From NCBI RefSeq assembly GCF_004010195.1, contig NC_057718.1, forward strand, positions 47,518,272-47,558,498: a stretch of 40,227 nucleotides of DNA. Direction: 5' to 3'. Positions within the stretch are counted from its first letter, which is position 1; each line of letters starts with the position of its first letter. The notes under the pieces were generated by a model. That model was not told where the DNA came from, ran no database searches, and saw only the letters and a program-made list of their open reading frames with translations. The stretch is from Chiloscyllium plagiosum (Eukaryota). This document shows positions 1-40,227 of this stretch, piece by piece. The position numbers and the translations under genes were made by a program.

Positions 1-537
1 TTGGTTAGGTCACATTTGGAGTACTGTGTGCAGTTCTGGTTGCCTCACTTTAGGAAAGATGTGGAAGCTTTGGAGAGGGTGCAGAGAAGATTTACCAGGA
101 TGTTGCCTGGAATGGAGAGGAAGTCGTACGAGGATAGGTTGAGAGTTCTCGGCCTTTTCTCGTTGGAACGGCGAAGGATGAGGGGTGACTTGATAGAGGT
201 TTATAAGATGATCAGAGGAATAGATAGAGTAGACGGTCAGAAACTTTTTCCCCGGGTACAACAGAGTGTTACAAGGGGACATAAATTTAAGGTGAAGGGT
301 GGAAGGTATAGGGGAGATGTCAGGGGTGGGTTCTTTACCCAGAGAGTGGTGGGGGCATGGAATACGCTGCCTGTGGGAGTGGTAGAGTCAGAATCTTTGG
401 TGACCTTTAAGCGGCAATTGGATAGGTACATGGATGGGTACATGGATGGGTGCTTCAGCTAGGACAAATGTTCGGCACAACATCGTGGGCCGAAGGGCCT
501 GTTCTGTGCTGTATTGTTCTATGTTCTATGTTCTATA
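1..537 (+). mobile_element. CR1 LINE 3' end (young)
   Basis: Open ORF2 C-terminus HLEYCVQFW...LERVQRRFTRMLPG...RGDLIEVYK, with (TTCTATG)n tail. Confidence 0.95.
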
Positions 538-2469: not shown

Positions 2470-3779
2470 TAATGCAGTCATGGAGGTTCAAACTTAAGCA
2501 ATACCCCAAGCAAACATTTCTCTGTCAGAGCTAGGGAATGCTATTCTACGATAAATCAAAACAAAAAAAAACACCCAATCCTGAAGAGTGCAAGTTGTAT
2601 GTGGAACCACAATGTGAGAGAAGATATAAATAAGACTGCAGCATTTCTTTGGACTGCATACTAAGGAAATGGACCAGTGTCAAATCCTAAAAGATTTGAA
2701 ATAGGAATCACTATAGTAAATGGAGGGAAAAAAGCACAGACTGATCATAGTCTATAAAATATGGAATGAACTGGTCAGAATTAATAGAAAGAAGAACCTG
2801 GCACATCCCAGCAACATCAAAATGCATATCTATTCACAAGCTATAAACATCTATTTCCAATACAATGCATCAATGTTTCTCCCTAAAGACAATCCCATAA
2901 TGAAACAAAGTTACAAAAGAAACCCATCACATACTCATTATTTAAAGTCTTTCAAATCATAGAATAAAATGATTAGGAAGAGACCCCCGGCCCATCAAGT
3001 CTTTACCACCAGAGCTACACTACTAGGCTCATAGACTTTTAAAAAAGGCTTGGATGAGCACTTGGAGTGTCTGACATTCAAGGCAATTCAAGTGCTCATC
3101 CAAGTACTTTTAAAATATTCTTTGTTTCCCATCTAAATATCCTCCCAGGGAATGCATTCCAAAACCCCCATCACTCTGGATGAAGTCATTCACTGGGTAC
3201 TCCCTGTCTTTCTCCTTCTTCCAAAGTGCATCACCTTATCAGTGTTAAATTCCATCAGCCCAATTGATTTATAGTTTCCTGTAACTTAAAATCTTCCTCA
3301 CTGTGAATGGCCAATGTTCATATCATTGTAAACTTATTACCACCACCTCCTTCCCAACATCCCCCAACCCCCAAAACTCCCACAGCTAGATTGTGCCTGG
3401 TTTATATGAGCAAAACCCATATAAAATGACAAGATGAATATTGTGAATGTAGACAACTATAACTGGAACTGGGGAAGATGATTTTGCTAAGATAATTGAC
3501 AAATAAATAATACACACCATGATGAATTAATCAACTAATTAGCTTCATTACAAAAGGAGAACGTTGTGTATAAAGATTTAAAATTTGGTGGCTGGACATA
3601 AGTGACAGTTGTACTTATTTGTATTTCAGTTTAAAAAGTTAGCTTTGCTTATTATTGTAGGCCTACAATAAAAAGTTACCATGGTAACAGTTTGTTGCTA
3701 TCTGCAGTGCAGTTTATGTTCATTATAAATTGATAATGAACTATTAATTGAGAAATATTTGAGTGGGTACAAACCATAG

Positions 3780-4349
3780 AAAGTTAAAAATCACAACAGG
3801 CTATCACCAGCTTTTGGAGCACTGCTCCTTCATCAGGTGTTTGTGTCCATTGCTGTCATTTGTATGTCCACAAACACCTAATGAAGGAGAAATGTTCCAA
3901 AAGCTGGTACTTAAACATAGAACGTTACAGGTCCTTTGGTTTCACAGGTTGACGCAACAATCTGAAGCCCATCTATCTATCCTAACTATTCTATTCTTGT
4001 CCATATGCCTGTTCAATGACCATGTAAATACCCTTAAAGTTGACGAGTCTACTACTGTTGCAGGCAGTTCGTTCCACACCCCTATTACTCCGAGAAAAGA
4101 AAATACCTCTGACATCTGTCCTATATCTATCACTCTTCAATTTAAAACTATGTTACCGCATGCTAGCCATTGCCACCAGAGGAAATTGGTTCTCACTGTC
4201 CAACCCCCTAATTCTCTTATATGTCTCAATTAAAATCATCTCTCAAACTTCTTCTCTCTAATGAAAACAGCCTCAAGTCTCTTAGCTTGGACTTTGTGTG
4301 ATTTTTAACTTTGTCCACCCCAGTCCAACACCGGCTCCTCCAAATCATA
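3780..4349 (+). mobile_element. Family B Penelope-type foldback element with decayed hammerhead cores, interrupted by an antisense CR1 3' fragment (about 3915-4288)
   Basis: Inverted arms accagcttttggagcactgctccttcatcaggtg / cacctaatgaaggagaaatgttccaaaagctggt; tail tgtgtgatttttaactttgtccaccccagtccaacaccggc. Flanks caaaccatagaaagtta (3770-3786) / caaatcataaaaagtta (4341-4357). Confidence 0.75.
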
Positions 4350-4493: not shown

Positions 4494-4655
4494 CTCTTCT
4501 CCATTGTATTTGGCCAATTCAGTGTCGGTAAACAGGCGGACAGCTGTCTGCGGAGGTGAACCTTTAAATGTGATTTTTTCTCCAAACAGCACATTTAAAC
4601 CGAGCAGACTAATGAGAACAACACAGGCACAGCGTCTAACTGCAGGAAACGACAT
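4494..4655 (-). CDS. NENF: Neudesin neurotrophic factor (secreted cytochrome b5-like heme/steroid-binding protein), coding exon 1
   Basis: ATG at 4655 gives 54 codons: MSFPAVRRCACVVLISLLGLNVLFG (signal-peptide-like) EKITFKGSPPQTAVRLFTDTELAKYNGEE, resembling human neudesin PPVRLFTEEELARYGGEE. It ends at a phase-0 donor GAG|GTGAAT. No downstream exon was recognised in 1-4493. Confidence 0.9.
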
Positions 4656-4744: not shown

Positions 4745-5031
4745 CTGTCAATCAACCAACTAGCCAATAGATAACCGGAAGGCTCAACCAATAAACAGCC
4801 GCCAAACAACAACTATAAAAATGCGCAGGTGCATAACAGACAACCAATAGGAACCAGCCCCTCGCCGCAGCAGACCAACAGAAAAAAAACACGCTATAAA
4901 CTACCAATAGAAAACAAGTCCCTCACCACAGACAGCTATTAGGAAAATCAACCTCTTACCGCAGTTAGCCAATGGGAAATCAGCATCATTCGGCAGCCAA
5001 CCAATGGGAAATCGACCCTCAACCGCAGATA
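4745..5031 (-). promoter_or_regulatory. NENF promoter: CCAAT-box array with ETS and NRF1-like sites
   Basis: CCAAT at 4764, 4788, 4844, 4904, 4969 and 5001; CCGGAA at 4775; TGCGCAGGTGCA at 4822. CpG-enriched and immediately upstream of the NENF ATG. Confidence 0.7.
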
Positions 5032-5068
5032 AAATCGACGTTTCGGGCAAAAGCCCTTCATCAGGAAT
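5031..5068 (-). ncRNA. Minimal hammerhead ribozyme motif (intact core, opposite strand)
   Basis: Reverse complement reads auuc-CUGAUGA-A-GGGCUUUUGCCC-GAAA-CG-UC-gauuuu. Confidence 0.7.
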
Positions 5069-5209
5069 ATACCTGGAATATACCTGATGAAGGGCTTTTG
5101 CCCGAAACGTCGATTTTGCTGCTCGTCGGATGCTGCCTGAATTGCTGTGCTCTTCCAGCACCATTGATCCAGAATCTGGTTTCCAGCATCTGCAGTCATT
5201 GTTTTTACC
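5032..5209 (+). mobile_element. Short non-autonomous Penelope-type foldback element (family A) with two hammerhead cores
   Basis: Perfect 35-bp inverted repeat 5031-5065/5083-5117, followed by the family tail ending gtttttacc. Direct repeat cctcaaccgcagata at 5017-5031 and 5208-5222. Confidence 0.85.
5083..5117 (+). ncRNA. Minimal hammerhead ribozyme motif (intact core)
   Basis: CUGAUGA (5084-5090), extra A, stem II GGGC-UUUU-GCCC, GAAA, palindromic ACGU, GUC cleavage triplet ending at 5111. Stem I is very weak. Confidence 0.7.
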
Positions 5210-5379
5210 TCAACCGCAGATAGACAGGAGGATACCAGATCCCCACTGCAAATGCAGGAATTTTGCCTCAATTCTGCTATTTTTCTACTTGTTATGTTTC
5301 TGGTGATGGACCCTTCTTCTTATGGAAAAAGAGCCTTCCTATCCAGTTTACATCCACCTCTGTCTGGTCCCTTGTCAAC

Positions 5380-6960
5380 CTCAGCTGTTGGAAGGAAAGC
5401 AATCTCTGCCTATCCCATCTTTCTCGGCTGAGACCCTCTAGCCCAGGTAGGTCTGGTAAATCTCCACTGCACCCTCTCTCATGCAAAACACATCCTTTGT
5501 TGCATGTGCTAACCAGAACTGCATACAATACTCCTTTGTGTTTAACCAGAGTTTTATGCAGTTAGTGGTGTTTTATACATAACCACTTTACATTTGATAC
5601 GTTCCCCATCATTTTTATTTTCTCTATGGACTGTGAATGACATGCAGAAGTCATCATATTGGCACAGAGATGGGCAGTAATAAAAGCCAATAACCCATAT
5701 ACATTCTCAACCACCTTGTCTACCTGGTAAAAACAATGACTGCAGATGCTGGAAACCAGATTCTGGATCAGTGGTGCTGGAAGAGCACAGCAATTCAGGC
5801 AGCGTCCGACGAGCAGCAAAATCCTTATTTACCTACCCTGCCACCTTCAGGGATCATGAATATGGTTACCAAGATCTGCCTATTCTTTGGTACTTTCCAA
5901 GATCTGACCATTCATGGTGCATCTATTGTTTTGTTAGCCTTCCCAAGTACATTACCTCACAATTATCCTGGTTACATTTCATTTAGCACTGTTCTGCCCA
6001 TCCGACTAGTTTGTTGATATCTTGCTGCAGTTTAAGGCTATCCTGTGTTTACTATCCTGCAAATGCTTGTGCCATCTGCAAACTTCTTGATCAAATCGCC
6101 TACATTTAAATCCATATTATTAATGTATACCACAAACAGCAAGAGCCCCAGCACTAAGCCTTGCAGAACCCCACTAGAAACAGACTTGCAGTCACTCTCT
6201 GCTGCCTGCAATGAATTTTGAATCCAACATGCCACTTTGCTTTGGGTTATATGGGCTCTTTCTTGACCAGTTACTATAATAAATATTATCAAAAGATTAT
6301 CATAATCAACATTCCTGGTATTTGTTCCCAAAGTTTAATCAAATTTGTCAAATATGATATTCCCTTAACAAATCAATGCTGTTAATCTCTGATTAATCCA
6401 TGTCTCTCCAAGTAGATATATTCTGTCCCTGAACATTCTTTCTAATAACTTCCCCACCACTGCAGTTAGATTGAATGGCTTGCAATTTCCCAATCTATCC
6501 CTTGTTCCCTTTTTTTAAACAATGGACAATGTGAGCTGTTCTCTAGTTCTGCGGCACCCCATATGTGGCCAGAGAGGATTTGAAAATTAATGCCACGGCC
6601 CTTGATATCTCCTTCCTTGCTTCCCACATCATCTCATCCAGGCCTTCAGACTTATCAACAGCTAAACCCTGTCCTACCCCCTCTTTCTCTCTCTATGTTA
6701 ATTTATTGTAATATTTCAGTCATCTGCCTGCATCATGTTTCTCCATTGTGAAGACTGCAATTAAAGTATTTACTGAGGACTCTGGCCACATTTTCTGGGT
6801 CCAAACATAGACTACCTCTATAATCCCCAATGGCTCCTACTCTTTTTCTAGTTAATTTCTTGCTATTTATATGTTTAAAAAATCCATGTTTTGTGATTTC
6901 CTTTATTATACTCAAGCGCTTTTTTGCTTTCTTTTAATTTTCTTTTTAAGTTCTTCTGTA
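5380..6960 (-). mobile_element. Degenerate antisense CR1 ORF2 fragments
   Basis: Minus-strand SGVLQGLVLGLLLFVVYINNMD...KFADGT and FFKHINSKKLTRKRVG. Confidence 0.8.
5726..5823 (-). mobile_element. Family A Penelope-type tail, 98 bp, inserted in an old antisense CR1
   Basis: 96/98 identical to the reverse complement of 5112-5209. Imperfect flanking repeat ccttgtctacct (5714-5725) / ccttatttacct (5823-5834). Confidence 0.85.
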
Positions 6961-9225: not shown

Positions 9226-9366
9226 GATTAGAGTGGTGCTAGAAAAGCACAGCAGGTCAGGCAGCATTTAAGGAGCAGGAAAATCGACATTTCGGGCAAA
9301 AGCCCTTCATTCCACCACTCGCATCTTGACTCTAATCTCCAGCATCTGCAGTACCCACTTTCGCCT
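9226..9366 (+). mobile_element. Family A Penelope-type element (inverted 5' arm plus sense tail)
   Basis: Inverted arm gattagagtggtgctagaaaagc...gacatttcgggcaaaagcccttcat, then tail ccagcatctgcagtacccactttcgcct. Imperfect flanks aattaagttgaatg / aattaaattaaatg. Confidence 0.75.
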
Positions 9367-12919: not shown

Positions 12920-13135
12920 CAAAAACAGAAATTGCTGGAATTGCTCAGCAGATCTGGTAGCATCGGTGGATAGAAAACCGCGTTAACATTTTAGTTTCCT
13001 CAGCGCTGGTTGCTGAACCCAAAACGTTCATTCTGATTTCTCTCCACAGATGCTGCCAGACCTGCTGAGCCTTTCCAGCAATGTCTATTTTTGTTTCTGA
13101 TTTCCAGCATCTGCCGCTCTTGCAGGTTTTATTGT
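12920..13135. mobile_element. Older palindromic relative of family A
   Basis: Inverted arms aattgctggaattgctcagcagatctggtagcatc / gatgctgccagacctgctgagcctttccagcaat, with tail tttccagcatctgc. Further decayed arms at about 16515-16620 and 23625-23720. Confidence 0.65.
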
Positions 13136-15195: not shown

Positions 15196-15219
15196 ACTGT
15201 ACTTTTTATATGCTGAAAA

Positions 15220-15302
15220 ATGTTGCTGGAAAAGCACAGCAGGTCAGGCAGCATCCAAGGAGCAGGAGAATCGACGTTTCAGGCATAAGCCCTTCTTCAG
15301 CC
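15220..15302 (-). mobile_element. Family A Penelope-type arm with hammerhead core (CUGAAGA variant)
   Basis: Minus strand reads CTGAAGA-AGGGCTTATGCCT-GAAA-CGTC-gattctcctgctccttggatgctgcctgacctgctgtgcttttccagca. Confidence 0.75.
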
Positions 15303-17454: not shown

Positions 17455-18910
17455 AAAAAACTGAAAGAACTGCAGCTGCTAAAAATCAGAAGAACAAACA
17501 AAGGTTGCTCGAAACAACTCAGCAGATCTGTCAGCGTCTGTGGAGAGAAAGCAGCATTAATATTTCAGATCTAGGGACCCTTCTTAAGGGCCATTGGACC
17601 TGAAATCATGTCTCACGAACTTGATTGAGTTTTTTGAAGAGGTAACAAAGAGGATTGATGAGGGCAGAGCAGTAGATGTGATCTACATGGACTTCAGTAA
17701 GACGTTTGACAAGGTTCCCATGGGAAACCAGTTAGCAAAGTTAGATCTCATGGAATACAGAGAGAACTAGCCCATTTTGGTACAGAACTGGCTCGAAGGT
17801 AGAAGACAGAGGGTGGTGGTGGAGGGTTGTTTTTCAGACTGGAGGCCTGTGACCAATGGAGTGCCACAAGGATTGGTGCTGGGTCCACTATTTTACATCA
17901 TTTATGATTTAGATGTGAGCATAAGAGGTACAGTTAGTAAGTTTGCAGATGATACCAAAATTGGAGGTGTGGTGGACAGCGAAGAAGGTTAGCTCAGATT
18001 ATAATGGGCTCTTTGTCAGATGGGTCAGTGGGCTGAGGAGTGGCAGATGGAGTTTAATTTAGATGAATGCGAGGTGCTGCATTTTGGGAAAGCAAATCTT
18101 AGCAGGTCTTATACATGTTAAGGTCCGAGGAGTGTTGCTGAACAAAGAGACCTTGGAGTGCAGGTTCAAAGCTCCTTGAAAGTAGAGTCGCAGGTAGATA
18201 GGATAGTGAAGAAGGTATTTTGTATGCTTTCCTTTATTGGTTAGAATATTGAGTACGAGTTGGGAAGTCATGTTGCAGCTGTACAGTACTGTTCGGCCAC
18301 TTTTCGAATATTGTGTGCAATTCTGGTCTCCGTCCTATTGGAATGATGTTGTGAAACTTGAAAGGGTTCAGAAAAGATTTAGCAGGATGTTATCAGGGTT
18401 AAAGGTCTTGAGCTATAGAGAGAGGTTGAATAGGCTGGGGCTGTTTTCCCTGGAGGCTGAGGGGTGACTTTATAGAGGTTTATTAAAGCATGAGGGGCAT
18501 GGATAGGATAAGGTCTTTTCCCTGGGGTTGGGGAATCCAGAACCAGAGGGCATAGGTTTAGAGTGAGAGGGGAAAGATATAAAAGAGATCTAAGGGGCAA
18601 TGTTTTCATGCAGAGGATGGTACGTGTATGGAATGAGCTGCCAGAGGAAGTGGTAGAAGCAGGTACAATTGCAACATTTAAGAGGCATTTGGATGTGTAT
18701 ATGAATAGGAAGAGTTTGGAGGGATATGGGCCGGGTGCTGGCAAGTGGGACTAGATTATGTTGGGAAATCTGGTCAGAATGGACGAGTTGGACTGAAGGG
18801 TCTGTTTCCAGGCTGTACATCTCTATGACTCTATTACTCTACAACTTTGTTTTCTTTCTACTGATGCTGCCAAACCTGCTGAGTTTTTCCAGCAATTTCT
18901 GCTTTTGTTA
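17455..18910. mobile_element. Older palindromic family A relative split by a CR1 insertion
   Basis: Left part 17455-17605 ends ...ggacctgaaa; right part at about 18840-18910 resumes ...gatgctgccaaacctgctgagtttttccagcaatt. Confidence 0.6.
17606..18833 (+). mobile_element. 5'-truncated CR1 LINE (RT to tail)
   Basis: GVPQGLVLGP and SKFADDTK motifs with frameshifts; tail ctctatgactcta. Confidence 0.95.
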
Positions 18911-27914: not shown

Positions 27915-29414
27915 CTTACAAATATATTAAGGACAAAAGGTTAACTAGGGAGAGAATAGGGCCCCTCCAAGATCAGCAAGGTGGTCTTTGTGTGGAGCCA
28001 CAGAAAATGGGGGAGATACCAAATAAATATTTTGCATCAGTATTTACTGTGGAAAAGGATAAGAAAGATATAGAACTGTAGGGAAATAGATGGTGACATC
28101 TTGCAAACTGTCCAGATTACAGAGGAGGAAGTGCTGGATGTCTTGAAATGGTTAAAAGTGGTTAAATCCCCTGGACCTGATCAGGTGTACCCGAGAACTC
28201 TATGGGAAGCTAGAGAAGTGATTGCTGGGCCGCTTGCTGATATATTTGTATCATCGATAGTCACAGGTGAGGTGCCGGAAGACTGGAGGTTGGCAAACGT
28301 GCCACTGTTTAAGAAGGGTGGTAAAGACAAGCCAGATAGCTAAAGACAGGTGAGCCTAACCTCGGTGGTGGGCAAGTTGTTGGAGGGAATCCTGAGGGAC
28401 AGGATGTACATGTATTTGGAAAGGCAAGGACTGATTCGGGATAATCAACATGACTTTGTGCGTGGGAAATCATGTCTCACAAACTTGATTGAGTTTTTTG
28501 AAGAAGTAACAAAGAAGATTGATGAGGGCAGAGCAGTAGNNNNNNNNNNNNNNNNNNNNNNNNNNNNNNNNNNNNNNNNNNNNNNNNNNNAAGTGGCAGA
28601 TGGAGTTTAATTCAGATAAGGTGCTGCATTTTGGGAAAGCAAGTCTTAGCAGGACTTATATACTTAATGGTAAGGTCCAAGGGAGTATTGCTGAACAAAG
28701 AGACCTTGGAATGCAGGTTCATGGCTCCTTGAAAGTGGAGTCGCAGATAGATAGGATAGTGAAGAAGGCGTTTGGTATGCTTTCCTGTATTGGTCAGAGT
28801 ATTGAGTACAGGAGTTGGGTTGTCATGTTGCGGCTGTGCAGGACATTGGTTAGGCCACTGTTGGAATATTGCATGCAATTCTGGTCTCCTTCCTATCGGA
28901 AAGATGTTGTGAAACTTGAAAGGGTTCAGAAAAGATTTACAACGATGTTGCCAGGGTTGGAGGATCTGAGCTACAGGGAGAGGCTGAACATGCTGGGGCT
29001 GTTTTCCCTGGAGCGTCGGAGGCTGAGGGGTGACCTTATAGAGGTTTACAAAATTTTGAGGGGCATGGATCGGATAAATAGACAAAATCTTTTCCCTGGA
29101 GTCGAGGAGTCCAGAACTAGAGGGCACAGGTTTAGGGTGAGAGGGGAAAGATATAAAAGAGACCTAAGGGACAACTTTTTCATGCAGAGGGTGGTACGTG
29201 TATGGAATGAGCTGTCAGAGGATGTGGTGGAGGCTGGTACAATTGCAACATTTAAGAGGCATTTGGATGGGTATATGAATAGGAAGAGTTTGGAGGGATA
29301 TGGGTCGGGTGCTGGCAGGTGGGACTAGATTGGGTTGGGATATCTGGTTGGCATGGATGGGTTGGACCGAAGGGTCTGTTTCCATGTTGTACATCTCTAT
29401 GACTCTATGACTCT
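27915..29414 (+). mobile_element. 5'-truncated CR1 LINE spanning an assembly gap
   Basis: KSPGPD...VPEDWRLANVP, KSCLTNLIEFFEEV, a 242-aa open C-terminus, and (CTATGACT)n tail. Confidence 0.95.
28540..28590. other. Assembly gap (51 N)
   Basis: Run of N inside a CR1. Confidence 1.
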
Positions 29415-30539
29415 AAACTGCTTCTGTCCACTTAGAGATGAGCAATGTGCTGGCCTAGTTAGTGAATCCCACGTCCCATGAATGAATATAAGAAAAAAAA
29501 TTCATTAAGTAATGAAAGTGAAACAGATCAAGAGAGGGGCAATAAATATAGTGAATTAGTTGCAGGTTCATCTGCAAGACCAGTCTCACATTTGGATGGA
29601 AGATCACCTTAAATGACTGGTGATGAAGTCTCACCTCTGAACAAGCAGAGGCAGATACATTATTCATCCCACACCCCAAAATAAAGTCAGTGGTGAGGGA
29701 AATAATGTACCAAAATAAAAACTGTCTACTATCTTGAACTCTGCAATTTTTCAGCCTAAAATGTTTGATATGATTCCTGGTCAGCACCAAGTTTGTAACA
29801 TCCCAGATGTTTATAGTCAGATTCAGTCAGGTACTAACCCCTGCACGATCACAGCAAACACAATTCTATTATCTCACAAAGTCTCATGAAGGCTCTCTGA
29901 CATATTGCTGGAGATGTGGAATATATAGCCAGCATCATCTTTGCAAATTGTGCCTCCTGGTGGTGCTATTGATGATAAACTCAACTGTCTACAAATTGAC
30001 AGTGTACTGGGCACTTTTTGGCAAAGTGGGAGTTACGATGAGTTTTTGATTGGAAGGTTTTTTTTGCTGCGAGGCCTAGTATGTTTTACCACCATATTTT
30101 ACCAAATTCACCACAGTAACTGCCTTAATGGTGTCCCCCACATCTAATTCTAGCCCCATCTTATCACACAGTGTTCTTAGAACAACTCGCTATTGCCAAG
30201 ATATTCTGGAATGGAATGACATCCCTTGTGCCTGTGCCATCTTTCTGAGCTTGTTGTGTACCCAGACTGTTGGGAGCCTCTGAGAATAGGCTATCTACTC
30301 CCTCTTGACTTGACTGAGGCCTCCGTGGCAAGCCTCCTGCCTTTGTGTCTGTACGGAACAACAAATTTCTATCACATAACTCGCCATAGCTCATGATACT
30401 CAGACTCATTCAAGGTTCTGCCCATGGTCATTATATCTGATGCTAGGTTTTCATTCGGTTTGATAATTGAATTAAATTGTCCTACTGCCATGATGGTATT
30501 TGAGGTCATGTTTTCCACGTATAGTCTCCTGTGTCTTTT

Positions 30540-31670: not shown

Positions 31671-32857
31671 AGGATTGCAAACCCCTAACCTAACTTCTGT
31701 GTTCTTATTCATCAAGTTACTTGCTTTATAACCGAGGGAGCAGACAGGTATTGCTGCTTTGGAGGGGTACCTGCATCATTCATTATTAGTTCAAATAGAT
31801 AAACCTTGTTTACTTTTGTACAGAATTAATACTTTTGTCTCCAACTGTAGTTACAACTGTACCATTAATTTCTCCCATAATTATTTAGCTGTGAAACTTC
31901 ACATTAGGTTCATCACCAAAACTGATTATTTCCCCCATAGCCTCTTCCCTAATTCAGTTGAGATTACTGATTTTAAAATATTTGAGTTTAATACCTTATT
32001 CTCTGACTTTGTCATTGGTTTCAAATATTCACTTTTAATATGTCATTCATCTTTGGAAAATGAGTGTTTTTAAGGTGGTTCGACGTACTTTAAATTTGAT
32101 GAATAATACTCCTTCATTGCATTCCTAACGATGAATGTAAAAACTGGGCTCCTGGGCATTGGTATTCCCGGTGTTACTGAGATTAGCTTTCTAAAATTAC
32201 TCTCAAAGAAGTTGTCTGTTAGATTATTGTAATTTTGTTTTAGTCATATTAATGTCTTAACTGCAGTTATACAGTTTCTGTTCAAGTTCACCCTGTTATA
32301 TCCTACATACTGTCACTGACATCTCACTGTGACAAAAATAACCTTTCAGTGCAGTCTTGCATACATCAATATATTTCAGTCTGAGGCATAAGTGCCTTCT
32401 ATGCAAATATCTTTATTAAAATATTCCATTTTTGGTAGTCTGACCCAACCATATTGCCATCTGTTCTTTATGTGGAGATGAGAAGGCCTGTCTTTATGTA
32501 AATGATAGTAAAATGCCTGTTGGTTCCTGTACAGTGTCTTTGCGGTTTAATTCTCACCTCTGCCATTATTTCTCCTTTTTGTTTTTCACATGTTTTTTTG
32601 TCAAGTTTAAGAAGTAACCCTCAGTGCAGTTCCGAATGACAAGCAACTGATGGGTAGCGAGATGGAATTACTGTAGTGCCTTTTTGTATAATTGGGGTTT
32701 TGATTCGCAAAAGTCAGCATTTTCAGTATTTGCTTTTTCACCTGCAATAAAAGTGAAAGAGTTTTAATTATAGCTGTATCATAAGTTACCAGCAATTGCA
32801 TACCTTTTTCAAAAAATAGGACTATACTTCAGTTTCAGTTTCTGGGCCACTTTCAAA

Positions 32858-33412
32858 TAGAGTCATAGAGACGTACAAGCACGGAAACAGACCCTTCGGT
32901 CCAACTTATCCATACTGACCAGATATCCCAACCCAATCTAGTTACACTTGCCAGCACCCAGCCCATATCCCTCCAAACCCTTCCCATTCTTAAACCTATT
33001 CATATGCCTTTTAAATGTTGCAATTATACTAGCCTCCATCAGTTCCTCTGGCAGCTCATTCCATACACGTACCACCCTCTGCGTGAAAAAGTTACCCCTT
33101 AGGTCTCTTTTATATCTTTCCCCTCTCATCCTAAACTTATGCCCACTAGAACTGGACTCCCCGATCCCAGGGAACAGACTTTGTCTATTTATCCCATCCA
33201 TGCCCCTCATAATTTTGTAAACCTCTATAAGGTCACCCCTCAGCCACCGGCACTCCAGGGAAAACAGCCCCAGCCTGTTCAGCCTCTCCCTATAGCTCAA
33301 ATCCTCCAACCCTGGCAACTTCCTTGTAAATCTTTTCTGAACCCTTTCAAGTTTCATAATCTCTTTCCGATAAGAAGAGGCCAGAATTGCATGCAATATT
33401 TCAACAAATGAC
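32858..33412 (-). mobile_element. CR1 3' end
   Basis: 152-aa ORF2 C-terminus; tail atagagtcatagag; caaatagag at both ends. Confidence 0.95.
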
Positions 33413-33931
33413 CAAATAGAGCAGATGAAAGCTATTCATGAATGCCAAGGGCATATTTTTTGTGTAAATTTCAAGTATTCAAATCCATTTTCAATACATC
33501 CCAACCTAATGAAAAACTGCCCAGCAACTTTGCAAAAGCTACTTGATCCAGAAATGCTGGCAACTCAAAAAGAGTCCTGATTATCGGTCCATGCCATGTA
33601 AAAGTCATTGGTAATATTAGTTTCTTCAGTGGTGAAAATTTTATAAGAGAAGGCTGAAAGGGGTGGGGGCAAATTCAGCAGAAGAATTCAAGGGGAGAAC
33701 TTTAAAGGGTAAATGGAGAGAAACTTCCCATACCAAAGGTGATATAAAGAAAAAACATTTTTTAATGCAGTGTATGGTTAGGATTTGGAAGGAAATGCCA
33801 AAGGGTGTGATGGAGGCAGATTCAGTTATGGCTTTCAGGAAAGTTTAGTTAGTTGTCTGAAGAGAGAAAATCAATGGAAGAAGTACTGAGGAATGGAACC
33901 AGCTGATACTCTCTTGTAGATATCTGCAATC

Positions 33932-34086
33932 TGGATTAGAGTGGTGCTGGAAAAGCACAGCAGTTCAGGCAGCATCCGAAGAGCAGGAAAATCGACATTT
34001 CAGGCAAAAGCCCTTCATCAGGAATACCTCTATTCCACTCTAATCCAGAATCTGGTTTCCAGCATCTGCAGTCATTGTTTTTACCT
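33932..34086 (+). mobile_element. Family A Penelope-type element (inverted arm with CpG-decayed HHR plus sense tail)
   Basis: Perfect 15-bp TSD tagatatctgcaatc at 33917-33931 and 34089-34103. Minus-strand core CTGATGA-AGGGCTTTTGCCT-GAAA-TGTC; tail ends gtttttacc. Confidence 0.88.
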
Positions 34087-34103
34087 CATAGATATCTGCA
34101 ATC

Positions 34104-34334: not shown

Positions 34335-36140
34335 CATTCTCTGCTTTGCTCCAGCCTGCCTTGACTATTTGACTTGCTCCTTTTCCCAACTGCACAAGCC
34401 TCAGACTGATCCTTTTCCTCCCAATCTCTATAGGTCACACCTCCCCCATTAAACTGCATTTATTTCAATGCAAAAGGCCTAATAGCAAAGGCAGATGAAC
34501 TTGGGGCATGGTTGGAAACACAGGGTGGGTTATCATAGCTATTAAGGAGATGTGCCACAGGGATAGATGACTGGCAGCTTAACGTTCCAGAGTATAGACT
34601 CTACAGGAAAGTTAGAAAGGGGGGCAAGAGAGGAGGGGTGTGGCATTTTTGATTGGGGATAGCATTACAGCTGTAGTTAGAGATGATATTCAGGGAAGTT
34701 CGTCGAATGAAGTATTGTGGGTGGAATTGAGAAATAAGAAAGGGGCGATCACCGTATTGAGAATGTACTATAGACAACCCCTCCAATAGTCAGGGGGAAA
34801 TTAAGAAGCAAATATATAAGACAATCTCCAATATCTATCTGTAAGACTAATAGGATGGTAATGGTAGTGAATTTTAACTCGTCAAGCATAGACTGAGACT
34901 CCCATAATGTTAAGGGACCAGATAAGGAAGAATTTAAGTGTGTACAAGAAAATCATCTGATTCAGTATGTGGATGAACCTAAACCTTAACCTTCTCTTGG
35001 CAAATAATGTGGGGCAGGTGACTGAGGTGTCACGGGTGGAGCACTTTGGGGCAATTGATCATAATTCTATTAGTTTTAATATAGTTATGGAAAAGGATAG
35101 GTCTGATTAGATTACTTACCGTGTGGAAACAGGCCCTTTGGCCCAACAAGTTCACACCGACTCTCCGAAGAGCAACCCACCCAGACCTATTCCCCTACAT
35201 TTACCCCTTCACTTAACACTACAGGCAATATTAACATGGCCAGTTCACCTAACGTGCACATTTTTGGACTGTGGGAGGAAACCAGAGCACCCGGAGGAAA
35301 CCCACGCAGACACGGGGAGAATGTGCAAACTCCAAACAGACAGTTGCCTGAGGCGGGAATTGAACCCGGGTCTCTGGCGTTGTGAAGTAGCAGTGCTAAC
35401 CACTGTGCCACCATGCCACCCATAAAGTTAATATTCTAAATTGGAGGAAAGCCAATTTTAACAGTATTAGTCATGAACTTTCAAAAGTTGGTTGGGGACG
35501 GATATTCACAGATCAGGGGAATGCTTGAAATTGGAGTTGCAGGTAGATAGGATAGTGAAGAACGTGTTTGGTATGCTTGCTTTTATTCAAAGCATTGAGT
35601 ATAAAGTTGGGAGGTCATATTGTGGCTGTATCGGACCTTGGTTTAGCCACTAAATGGAATACTGCGTGCAATTCTGGTCTCCCTGTTGTAGAAAGAATGT
35701 TGTGAAACTTGAAAAGGTTCAGAAAAACATTACAAGAATGTTGCCAGGGTTGGAGGGCTTGAGCTACAGGGAAAGGCTAAATAGTCTGGGGCTACTTTCC
35801 CTGGAGCATTGGAGGCTGAGAAGTGAGAGGTTTATAAAATCATGAGGGGAATGGGTAGGGTAAATAGACAAGGGTTGGAGGTGAGAGAGGAAAGATTTAA
35901 AAGAAACCTGAGAGGCAACCTTTTCACACAGATGGTGGTGTGTGTATGGAGTGAGCTGCCAGAGGAAGTGATGGAGGCTGGTACAATGACAACATTTAAA
36001 ACGCATCTGGATCGGTATATGAATAGGAAGGGTTTAGAAGGATATGGGCCAAATGCTGGCAAATGAGACTAGATTAATTTAGGCTATCTGGTCGGCTTGG
36101 ATGGAAGGTTCTGTTTCCGTGCTGTACATCTCTGACCTCT
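34335..36140 (+). mobile_element. Internally deleted CR1 (endonuclease N-terminus plus 3' end) with an inverted 5' piece and a nested SINE
   Basis: LNCIYFNAKGL at about 34449 and MEYCVQFWSP at 35654; 34335-34447 is antisense inter-ORF sequence. Confidence 0.85.
35105..35423 (-). mobile_element. tRNA-derived SINE (HE1/V-SINE-like), nested in CR1
   Basis: Reverse complement of the 2199-2469 family; tail taagtaatctaatc. Confidence 0.9.
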
Positions 36141-39962: not shown

Positions 39963-40227
39963 ATAGAGTCATAGAGATGTACAGCATGGAAACAGACCCT
40001 TCGGTCCAACCCATCCATGCCGACCAGATATCCCAACCCAATCTAGTCCCACCTGCCAGCACCCGGCCCATATTCCTCCAAACCCTTCCTATTCATATAC
40101 ACATCCAAATGCCTCTTAAATGTTGCAATTGTACCAGCCTCCACCACATCCTCTGGCAGCTCATTCCATACACGTACCACCCTCTGTGTGAAAAAGTTGC
40201 CCCTTAGGTCTCTTTTATATCTTTCCC
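39963..40227 (-). mobile_element. CR1 3' end (runs off the window)
   Basis: Reverse complement of about 29145-29414. Confidence 0.95.

What the first reader, a model, noticed from the sequence alone, without database searches (positions are those of the whole stretch)
5017..5222. Tiny non-coding foldback retroelement carrying intact hammerhead ribozyme cores on both strands, next to the NENF promoter
Seen: an insert of about 180 bp between 15-bp direct repeats (cctcaaccgcagata), containing a perfect 35-bp inverted repeat. Each arm reads CUGAUGA-A-GGGC(UUUU)GCCC-GAAA-CG-UC with all CpGs intact, and the spacer holds a tandem ggaatatacct. Established: this is the hammerhead core, and Penelope-like elements carry minimal HHRs in which helix III is replaced by a short palindrome, proposed to work as dimers. 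Inference: a young, non-autonomous, ribozyme-bearing element mobilised by PLE machinery, with no tRNA head or poly(A). Stem I is only 1-2 bp, and the full foldback could sequester the cores, so activity is uncertain.
Basis: partly seen in the sequence, partly recalled or inferred. Interest (0 to 1): 0.75.

Follow-up and report, generated by a model that had tools for sequence, protein, structure and literature searches.

The report
Fold-back scar of shark Penelope retrotransposon
This 176-base hairpin upstream of a shark neudesin-like gene is a recent, cut-short, mirror-image insertion of the end piece of an abundant Penelope-type jumping gene; its two ribozyme motifs are a known feature of such elements and are predicted to be locked inactive in the hairpin, so it is ordinary.

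Summary
The sequence description is correct: 15-bp direct repeats, a perfect 35-bp inverted repeat, and a minimal hammerhead core on each strand. It is not a separate non-autonomous element. The right arm is the pseudo-LTR end of a Penelope-like element (PLE). Copies with the same 45-mer (1,346 exact matches) run upstream into GIY-YIG and RT coding sequence with a Neptune/Nematis-type zinc-finger linker. Their 3' ends fall at two sites 35 nt apart, the known PLE tail. Of 89 loci, 21 are compact fold-backs with differing centres, and 14-15 bp is the modal duplication. A related species has the empty site, so the insertion is young. In read-through RNA of either strand both cores are predicted to be fully sequestered. 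Selection on the ribozyme shows between master lineages, not among copies. One lead: 5' junctions are about 2.6-fold enriched at the predicted cut site in this family, but not in a second family. The scan has noted such shark fold-backs many times on other DNA.

The parts
5017..5031 (+). Left target-site duplication (15 nt); present once, diverged, in the empty site of organism B
5032..5069 (-). Short inverted arm: pLTR positions -4 to about +34 (core C3 = +1); holds the minus-strand minimal hammerhead (5064 to 5037) with the family-native helix I strand
5070..5082 (.). Junction filler; with its flanks it forms the tandem 11-mer (5064-5074, 5075-5085). Differs between copies
5083..5207 (+). 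Long arm: 5'-truncated pLTR end of the PLE, 1-2 substitutions from the closest copies over 128 nt
5084..5111 (+). Plus-strand minimal type I hammerhead core; predicted cut after 5111; helix I reduced to 1 bp at this junction
5176..5210 (+). 35-nt PLE tail between the two family 3' ends; its last 3 nt overlap the right duplication
   Evidence: 47 of 95 arms end at +124..127, 46 of 95 at +88..96
5208..5222 (+). Right target-site duplication (15 nt)
5726..5823 (-). Second copy of the same subfamily (98% identical), no hammerhead core, 5' end at the base after the predicted cut site; has its own 5-nt duplication and is absent in organism B
   Evidence: table 8, X12 record 4
4494..4655 (-). First coding exon of the neudesin-like (NENF) gene; the insert is 362 nt upstream of the ATG
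4764..5005 (.). Host promoter-like region with six CCAAT words, partly in ~32-nt repeats; the insert landed in the next repeat unit

Best explanation
This is one recent insertion of a Penelope-like retrotransposon (probably Neptune clade), reduced to its pseudo-LTR end and likely written by two separate copying starts, one from each cut DNA strand. Shown: the arms are pLTR sequence of an RT + GIY-YIG element; the long arm ends at the tailed 3' site; the site is duplicated by 15 nt; the site is empty in a related species. Inferred: the element's endonuclease made staggered nicks about 15 nt apart. One nick primed reverse transcription at the tail end and the cDNA stopped just past the hammerhead. 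The other nick primed internally, about 6 nt 3' of the predicted cut site, through imperfect microhomology, and its cDNA stopped at about the same place. The two cDNA ends were then joined head to head with a slipped, templated filler. The template for both arms must have been uncleaved RNA, since both copy across the cut site. The two hammerheads are passengers of the pLTR and are predicted to be inactive here, because any RNA crossing the locus folds into the 43-bp hairpin.
For: Subfamily copies continue upstream into the 3' UTR, GIY-YIG and RT. L157 carries the same 45-mer and an RT frame (PF00078, E 5e-6); L207 carries it and a GIY-YIG frame (PF01541, E 1e-3). L066 links an arm to a downstream frame with the DKG and YIDD motifs. 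Tandem arms 3.2-4.0 kb apart occur in L051, L053, L055, L062. 3' ends are bimodal, 35 nt apart, matching the two RT start sites and tail in PMC11167929. 21 of 89 loci are compact fold-backs: 14 have one tailed and one tail-less arm, 4 have one short arm like this one, 2 are complex, 1 is cut by N (my classification). In 3 of the 4 short-arm cases the arm starts with 2-4 nt shared with the duplication end. Longest flanking repeat is 13-17 nt in 24 of 95 arms, mode 14-15. Empty site in organism B (X12 and X13 are one sample). Stem II pairing probability rounds to 0.000000 in read-through RNA of either strand.
Against: Both Pfam hits are below the curated cut-offs. No intact full-length copy was seen: the middles of the longest loci read N and the readable frames are broken. 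The clade call rests on one motif, with no tree. Dual priming is inferred from end patterns, not observed; Arkhipova et al. (PMC3846280) explain head-to-head junctions by self-priming on an antisense template. This copy's short arm (to +34) is shorter than the other four seen (+52 to +70). 36 of 95 arms had no detectable duplication (many are N-cut or longer than the flank searched).
Confidence: 0.82

Rival explanations
1. Same PLE origin, but the insert began as a standard tailed/tail-less fold-back and lost about 58 nt of the outer left arm afterwards, or during repair, by hairpin-promoted deletion.
For: Long perfect palindromes are unstable (general knowledge). 14 of 21 compact fold-backs have the full tail-less arm.
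Against: The left duplication is intact and abuts the arm exactly; 4 other short-arm copies show the same geometry, 3 with microhomology at that junction. One other organism A data set also shows arm sequence directly after the duplication (X3 record 8, 19 nt).
Confidence: 0.1
2. A distinct non-autonomous fold-back or retrozyme-like family that is transcribed and re-inserted as a unit by PLE proteins.
For: Short pLTR-only insertions are very common: 32 of 76 uncensored 5' junctions lie between -13 and +9. Non-LTR retrozymes are proposed to derive from pLTRs (bioRxiv 10.64898/2026.07.22.740005).
Against: None of the 29 other best-matching loci shares this short arm and filler. Junction positions form a continuum back into the ORF. 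Retrozymes are head-to-tail tandems, whereas this is head to head. The hairpin would bury the RT start region on the short arm and both cores.
Confidence: 0.05
3. A MITE or fold-back DNA transposon whose inverted repeat resembles a hammerhead by chance.
For: Short, non-coding, with an inverted repeat and a duplication.
Against: The inverted repeats are internal and asymmetric, not terminal. Duplication length varies. The sequence is contiguous with RT and GIY-YIG frames. Helices covary between families.
Confidence: 0.01
4. The insertion has become a regulatory element of the NENF promoter (hairpin, CpG methylation or small-RNA target).
For: It sits 11 nt beyond the last of six CCAAT words and keeps 8 CpGs; it appears in more than one organism A sample.
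Against: With about one pLTR-related fragment per 7 kb, one near a promoter is expected. It is absent in a species about 5% diverged in the flank. No functional data.
Confidence: 0.05

Closest known systems
Endonuclease-positive Penelope-like element insertions with inverted pLTR, tail and TSD (Adineta Pen2a_Av, PMC3846280; general scheme in PMC8557442 Fig. 2 legend)
   Same: Head-to-head inverted pLTR, optional 30-40 nt tail on one end (35 nt here), variable-length duplication, palindromic or microhomology junction, 5' truncation.
   Different: Here the whole ORF is missing, so only the two pLTR ends remain; the inverted arm is unusually short (39 nt); duplications are longer (14-15 nt against 8-10 nt).
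Metazoan PLE minimal hammerheads (min-HHR; Cervera and de la Pena 2014, PMC4209133)
   Same: [quoted passage not shown] That paper also reports dual motifs 100-700 bp apart on opposite strands in Schistosoma.
   Different: Helix II is 4 bp (7-8 bp in Schistosoma). I saw no shark example in the parts read or in the two searchable supplement files (file 1 could not be searched).
Poseidon element of Anolis (PAc; Frangieh 2024, PMC11167929)
   Same: Two internal RT start sites that define the tail; an ATG inside the hammerhead about 25 nt before the cut site; uncleaved RNA as the main template; both DNA strands cut and extended in vitro.
   Different: The shark element has the CX4CX2C linker that Penelope/Poseidon lacks. 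No activity was measured here.
Non-LTR retrozymes (bioRxiv 10.64898/2026.07.22.740005)
   Same: Non-coding, pLTR-derived, type I hammerhead.
   Different: Retrozymes are head-to-tail tandems with same-strand ribozymes; this is a single head-to-head insert with opposite-strand cores.

Membership tests
EN+ Penelope-like element (family of origin) | RT domain followed by a C-terminal GIY-YIG endonuclease, contiguous with the pLTR | tested here: met
   L157 and L207 (same 45-mer as the focal copy): PF00078 E 5e-6, PF01541 E 1e-3, both under curated cut-off; relatives carry PF00078, PF26215, PF01541. The focal copy itself has no ORF.
EN+ Penelope-like element (family of origin) | CCHH motif with two cysteines between GIY and YIG; DKG motif before the RT core | tested here: met
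   Read from translations of L078, L207 and L066 against the description in PMC8557442.
EN+ Penelope-like element (family of origin) | Optional 30-40 nt tail; direct or inverted pLTRs; variable TSD | tested here: met
Neptune clade | CX2-5CxxC zinc-finger-like linker between RT and EN (shared with Nematis, absent in Penelope/Poseidon) | tested here: met
   CX4CX2C in L078 and L207; definition.
Neptune clade | RT groups with Neptune references in a tree | not tested
   No reference set was at hand; Nematis is not formally excluded.
PLE minimal hammerhead | Core CUGANGA / GAAA / NUH, bulged base before helix II, palindromic 15.2-16.2, covariation | tested here: met
   49 hits against 0-3 in shuffles, with several helix II variants; a second family swaps the palindrome (ACGU to AGCU) and helix I together.
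PLE minimal hammerhead | Self-cleavage as dimer or with PLE protein | not testable with these tools
   Folding predicts sequestration at this locus; the indirect junction test was mixed.
Rfam hammerhead families | Match to an Rfam hammerhead covariance model | tested here: not met
   11 matches at E <= 5, all generic hairpin or sRNA models below gathering score, none a hammerhead.
Non-LTR retrozyme | Tandem head-to-tail units with same-strand hammerheads | tested here: not met
Non-autonomous family moving as a unit (SINE or MITE-like) | Many copies with the same two ends and internal structure | tested here: not met

The most novel reading that the evidence does not exclude
The tens of thousands of truncated copies record the ribozyme at work in the germ line: about 2.5% of copies begin exactly at the base after the predicted cut, as the neighbour at 5726-5823 does, which would be a genomic trace of in vivo cleavage by a metazoan PLE minimal hammerhead; and the fold-backs record two-strand priming by a dimeric PLE protein.
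Probability: 0.2. Interest if true: 0.55.

Novelty: new member of a known kind. Interest (0 to 1): 0.16.

Why it matters
The single locus matters little: it is one of very many insertion scars. The family is useful as a data set. PLE integration is still poorly understood and PLE minimal hammerheads have not been shown to cut in vivo in the papers read (PMC11167929 found no RNA-seq reads ending at the site). A young shark family with about 40,000 near-identical ends allows base-level statistics on priming sites, inversion points and possible cleavage-derived 5' ends.

Tried and rejected
Rfam found no hammerhead. Splicing idea: the GU of the cleavage triplet as donor and the AG just past the tail as acceptor would join the ATG inside the core to the long frame; a genome search found 0 precisely spliced copies and 1 microhomology deletion, so there is no support. 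Cleavage footprint: my first junction map was biased by a reference mutated at +27/+28 and was redone (7 of 76 junctions at +28..30, 4 of 76 in +11..27). Genome-wide counts, corrected for flank composition and for false hits read by eye in 30 loci each: about 1,010 at +29 (513 hits, 21 of 30 true), about 390 at +21 (232 hits, 20 of 30 true), at most 388 at +30 (97 hits, not inspected), at most 485 at +25 and neighbours (244 hits, not inspected), of 39,850. In the second family there was no peak: about 130 at the cut site (294 hits, only 4 of 30 true because a sequence variant contaminated the pattern), 115 four bases upstream, 340 two bases downstream. Many +29 junctions share GA with their partner, and the site is next to an ATT, the PAc endonuclease's preferred cut, so the excess is not accepted as shown. 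Core conservation among copies: none (non-CpG core 3 of 480, other non-CpG 7 of 864, Fisher p = 1; CpG 26 of 288; 5 indel copies of 53 dropped); the core test has little power. Expression: no RNA holder listed; 4 reads of one RNA run (2% read) cover 4560 to about 4735 and none cover 4747-5044, too few to judge. PDB and Atlas searches did not name exon 1, exon 4 or the RT piece. The sequence look-up in earlier findings returned nothing.

Full report
Observation. Each strand carries CUGAUGA-A-GGGC(UUUU)GCCC-GAAA-CG-UC. The hairpin is far from chance (z = -10.9). Rfam has no hammerhead hit here, as expected for a motif without helix III. The gene on the minus strand starts at 4655; further exons lie left of the window and one hits cytochrome-b5-like steroid-binding proteins, consistent with neudesin, a name I recall rather than retrieved. 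The closest named proteins of the element's endonuclease region are from a bamboo shark (80% identity).

It is a repeat. Five homologous pieces lie in the window. In 60 evenly chosen 10-kb stretches (580,709 readable nt) there are 80 clusters of related sequence, about one per 7 kb including older subfamilies. A 28-nt degenerate pattern has 39,850 exact matches and the 45-mer of the focal subfamily has 1,346. I examined 89 loci (95 arms), taken from the first 92 of those matches in coordinate order.

It is the end of a Penelope-like element. Number the core C3 as +1. Subfamily arms extend upstream to variable points, many through a C-rich 3' UTR into a GIY-YIG frame, and L157 on into an RT frame. 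Arms that continue downstream enter the 5' end of a long frame with DKG and YIDD motifs (L066). Four loci have same-strand arms 3.2-4.0 kb apart; their middles read N. The endonuclease has the CCHH arrangement and a CX4CX2C linker, which PMC8557442 (passages) assigns to Neptune and Nematis. 3' ends fall in two groups, +124..127 (47 of 95) and +88..96 (46 of 95): a 35-nt tail, like the optional tail in PMC3846280 (passages) and the two RT start sites in PMC11167929 (parts 1-2 of 4). Inverted 5'-truncated copies next to the pLTR are described as frequent in PMC8557442.

The fold-back is made at insertion. Of 89 loci, 21 are compact fold-backs: 14 pair a tailed with a tail-less arm, 4 have one short arm, 2 are complex, 1 is cut by N (classified by me). 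Their centres differ in every case, as do those of the best genome-wide matches to the insert. Six of 89 loci have two head-to-head cores within 400 nt and 2 have both strictly intact, so the focal state is a minority but not unique. The longest flanking repeat is 13-17 nt in 24 of 95 arms; 15 nt is typical. The focal copy belongs to the short-arm class. Its left duplication ends in bases that can pair imperfectly with the RNA at +34..39, and 3 of the 4 other short arms start with 2-4 nt shared with their duplication. I infer priming from both nicked strands, as PAc cuts and extends both strands in vitro, followed by end joining of the two cDNAs with a slipped filler. Arkhipova's self-priming model and later deletion remain possible.

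Age. The long arm differs by 1-2 bases in 128 from its closest copies. A related species has the empty site, with one diverged copy of the duplicated sequence followed directly by the right flank (two runs of one sample), and also lacks the second copy at 5726-5823. Contigs of other organism A runs run 10-23 nt into the element at its junctions, below the tool's bridging threshold but consistent with a filled site.

The ribozyme. The motif matches the min-HHR of Cervera and de la Pena (PMC4209133, parts 1-2 of 4). Several shark families keep the core while helix II, the four-base palindrome and helix I change together, which points to selection in the master lineages. Among inserted copies the core decays like its surroundings, with CpG sites fastest (low power). 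At this locus any RNA crossing both arms is predicted to pair the core completely. The cores are on opposite strands, so the dimer fold cannot form in cis. Both arms copy across the cut site, so their template was uncleaved, in line with PMC11167929.

A lead with mixed support. The neighbouring copy starts at the base after the predicted cut. In the focal family, junctions at that base number about 1,010 of 39,850 against about 390 at a control G eight bases upstream and at most 388 one base downstream. In a second family the cut site showed no excess (about 130 against 115 and 340), although that test was weakened by a contaminating variant. Microhomology and the adjacent ATT can explain the first result, so I give in vivo cleavage as its cause about 0.2. 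The largest cluster of 5' ends (32 of 76 between -13 and +9) is unexplained; an initiator-like word at -3 or RT release after helix II are candidates I did not test.

Literature and novelty. Four searches found the PLE layout, tail and min-HHR described, but no paper on shark PLE hammerheads or on genomic 5' ends at the cut site; subscription journals, Repbase and Dfam were not searchable, one supplement file of PMC4209133 could not be searched, and the supplements of the retrozyme preprint (parts 1-3 of 5 read) are closed, so a prior description may exist. PMC8969392 and PMC12602865 were seen as passages only and added nothing specific. Earlier notes of this scan describe the same kind of shark fold-back many times (620 findings with the search words); I had reached my reading before seeing them and do not count them as support.

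Verdict. A real, young, correctly described feature, but an ordinary insertion scar of a known kind of element. New member of a known kind; interest 0.16.

Noticed in passing
window 5726-5823: The second copy covers almost exactly the part of the pLTR (+29 to +126) that the focal short arm lacks, on the same strand, 516 nt away; two copies of this young subfamily so close is unlikely by chance. It has its own duplication, so it may be a coupled or local second event.
   Followed up: partly
window 3779-3920 and 4297-4347: Pieces of a second hammerhead-bearing family (AGCU palindrome, CAC/GUG helix I), including a decayed fold-back at about 3806-3908; the family also has two 3' ends and inverted copies. 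Its coding part was not examined.
   Followed up: partly
window 9226-9352, 15219-15300, 33930-34088, 12920-13114: Further pLTR fragments; 33930-34088 is a fold-back with the tail on the inverted arm and a duplication of about 15 nt.
   Followed up: partly
L241, L244, L245, L278, L317, L321, L335, L341: Recurrent internal deletions that remove helix II of the hammerhead, in both families; possibly RT jumping across the hairpin.
   Followed up: no
L020, L032, L036, L037, L045-L050: Short partial tandems in which the pLTR runs 40-300 nt into the ORF start and then jumps to a second pLTR.
   Followed up: no
element +112 to +129 (e.g. L031:1501-1530): The tail ends in a pyrimidine tract followed by AG in full-length context, like a splice acceptor; no spliced genomic copy was found.
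   Followed up: partly
window 4764-5005: Six CCAAT words upstream of the neudesin-like gene, partly in ~32-nt repeats, conserved in organism B with an 8-nt insertion at 4769.
   Followed up: no
window 1-462, 18039-18846, 28592-29419, 32857-33406, 35524-36133, 39963-40227: Multi-copy fragments of what looks like a LINE 3' end (CR1-like by recall; not tested).
   Followed up: no
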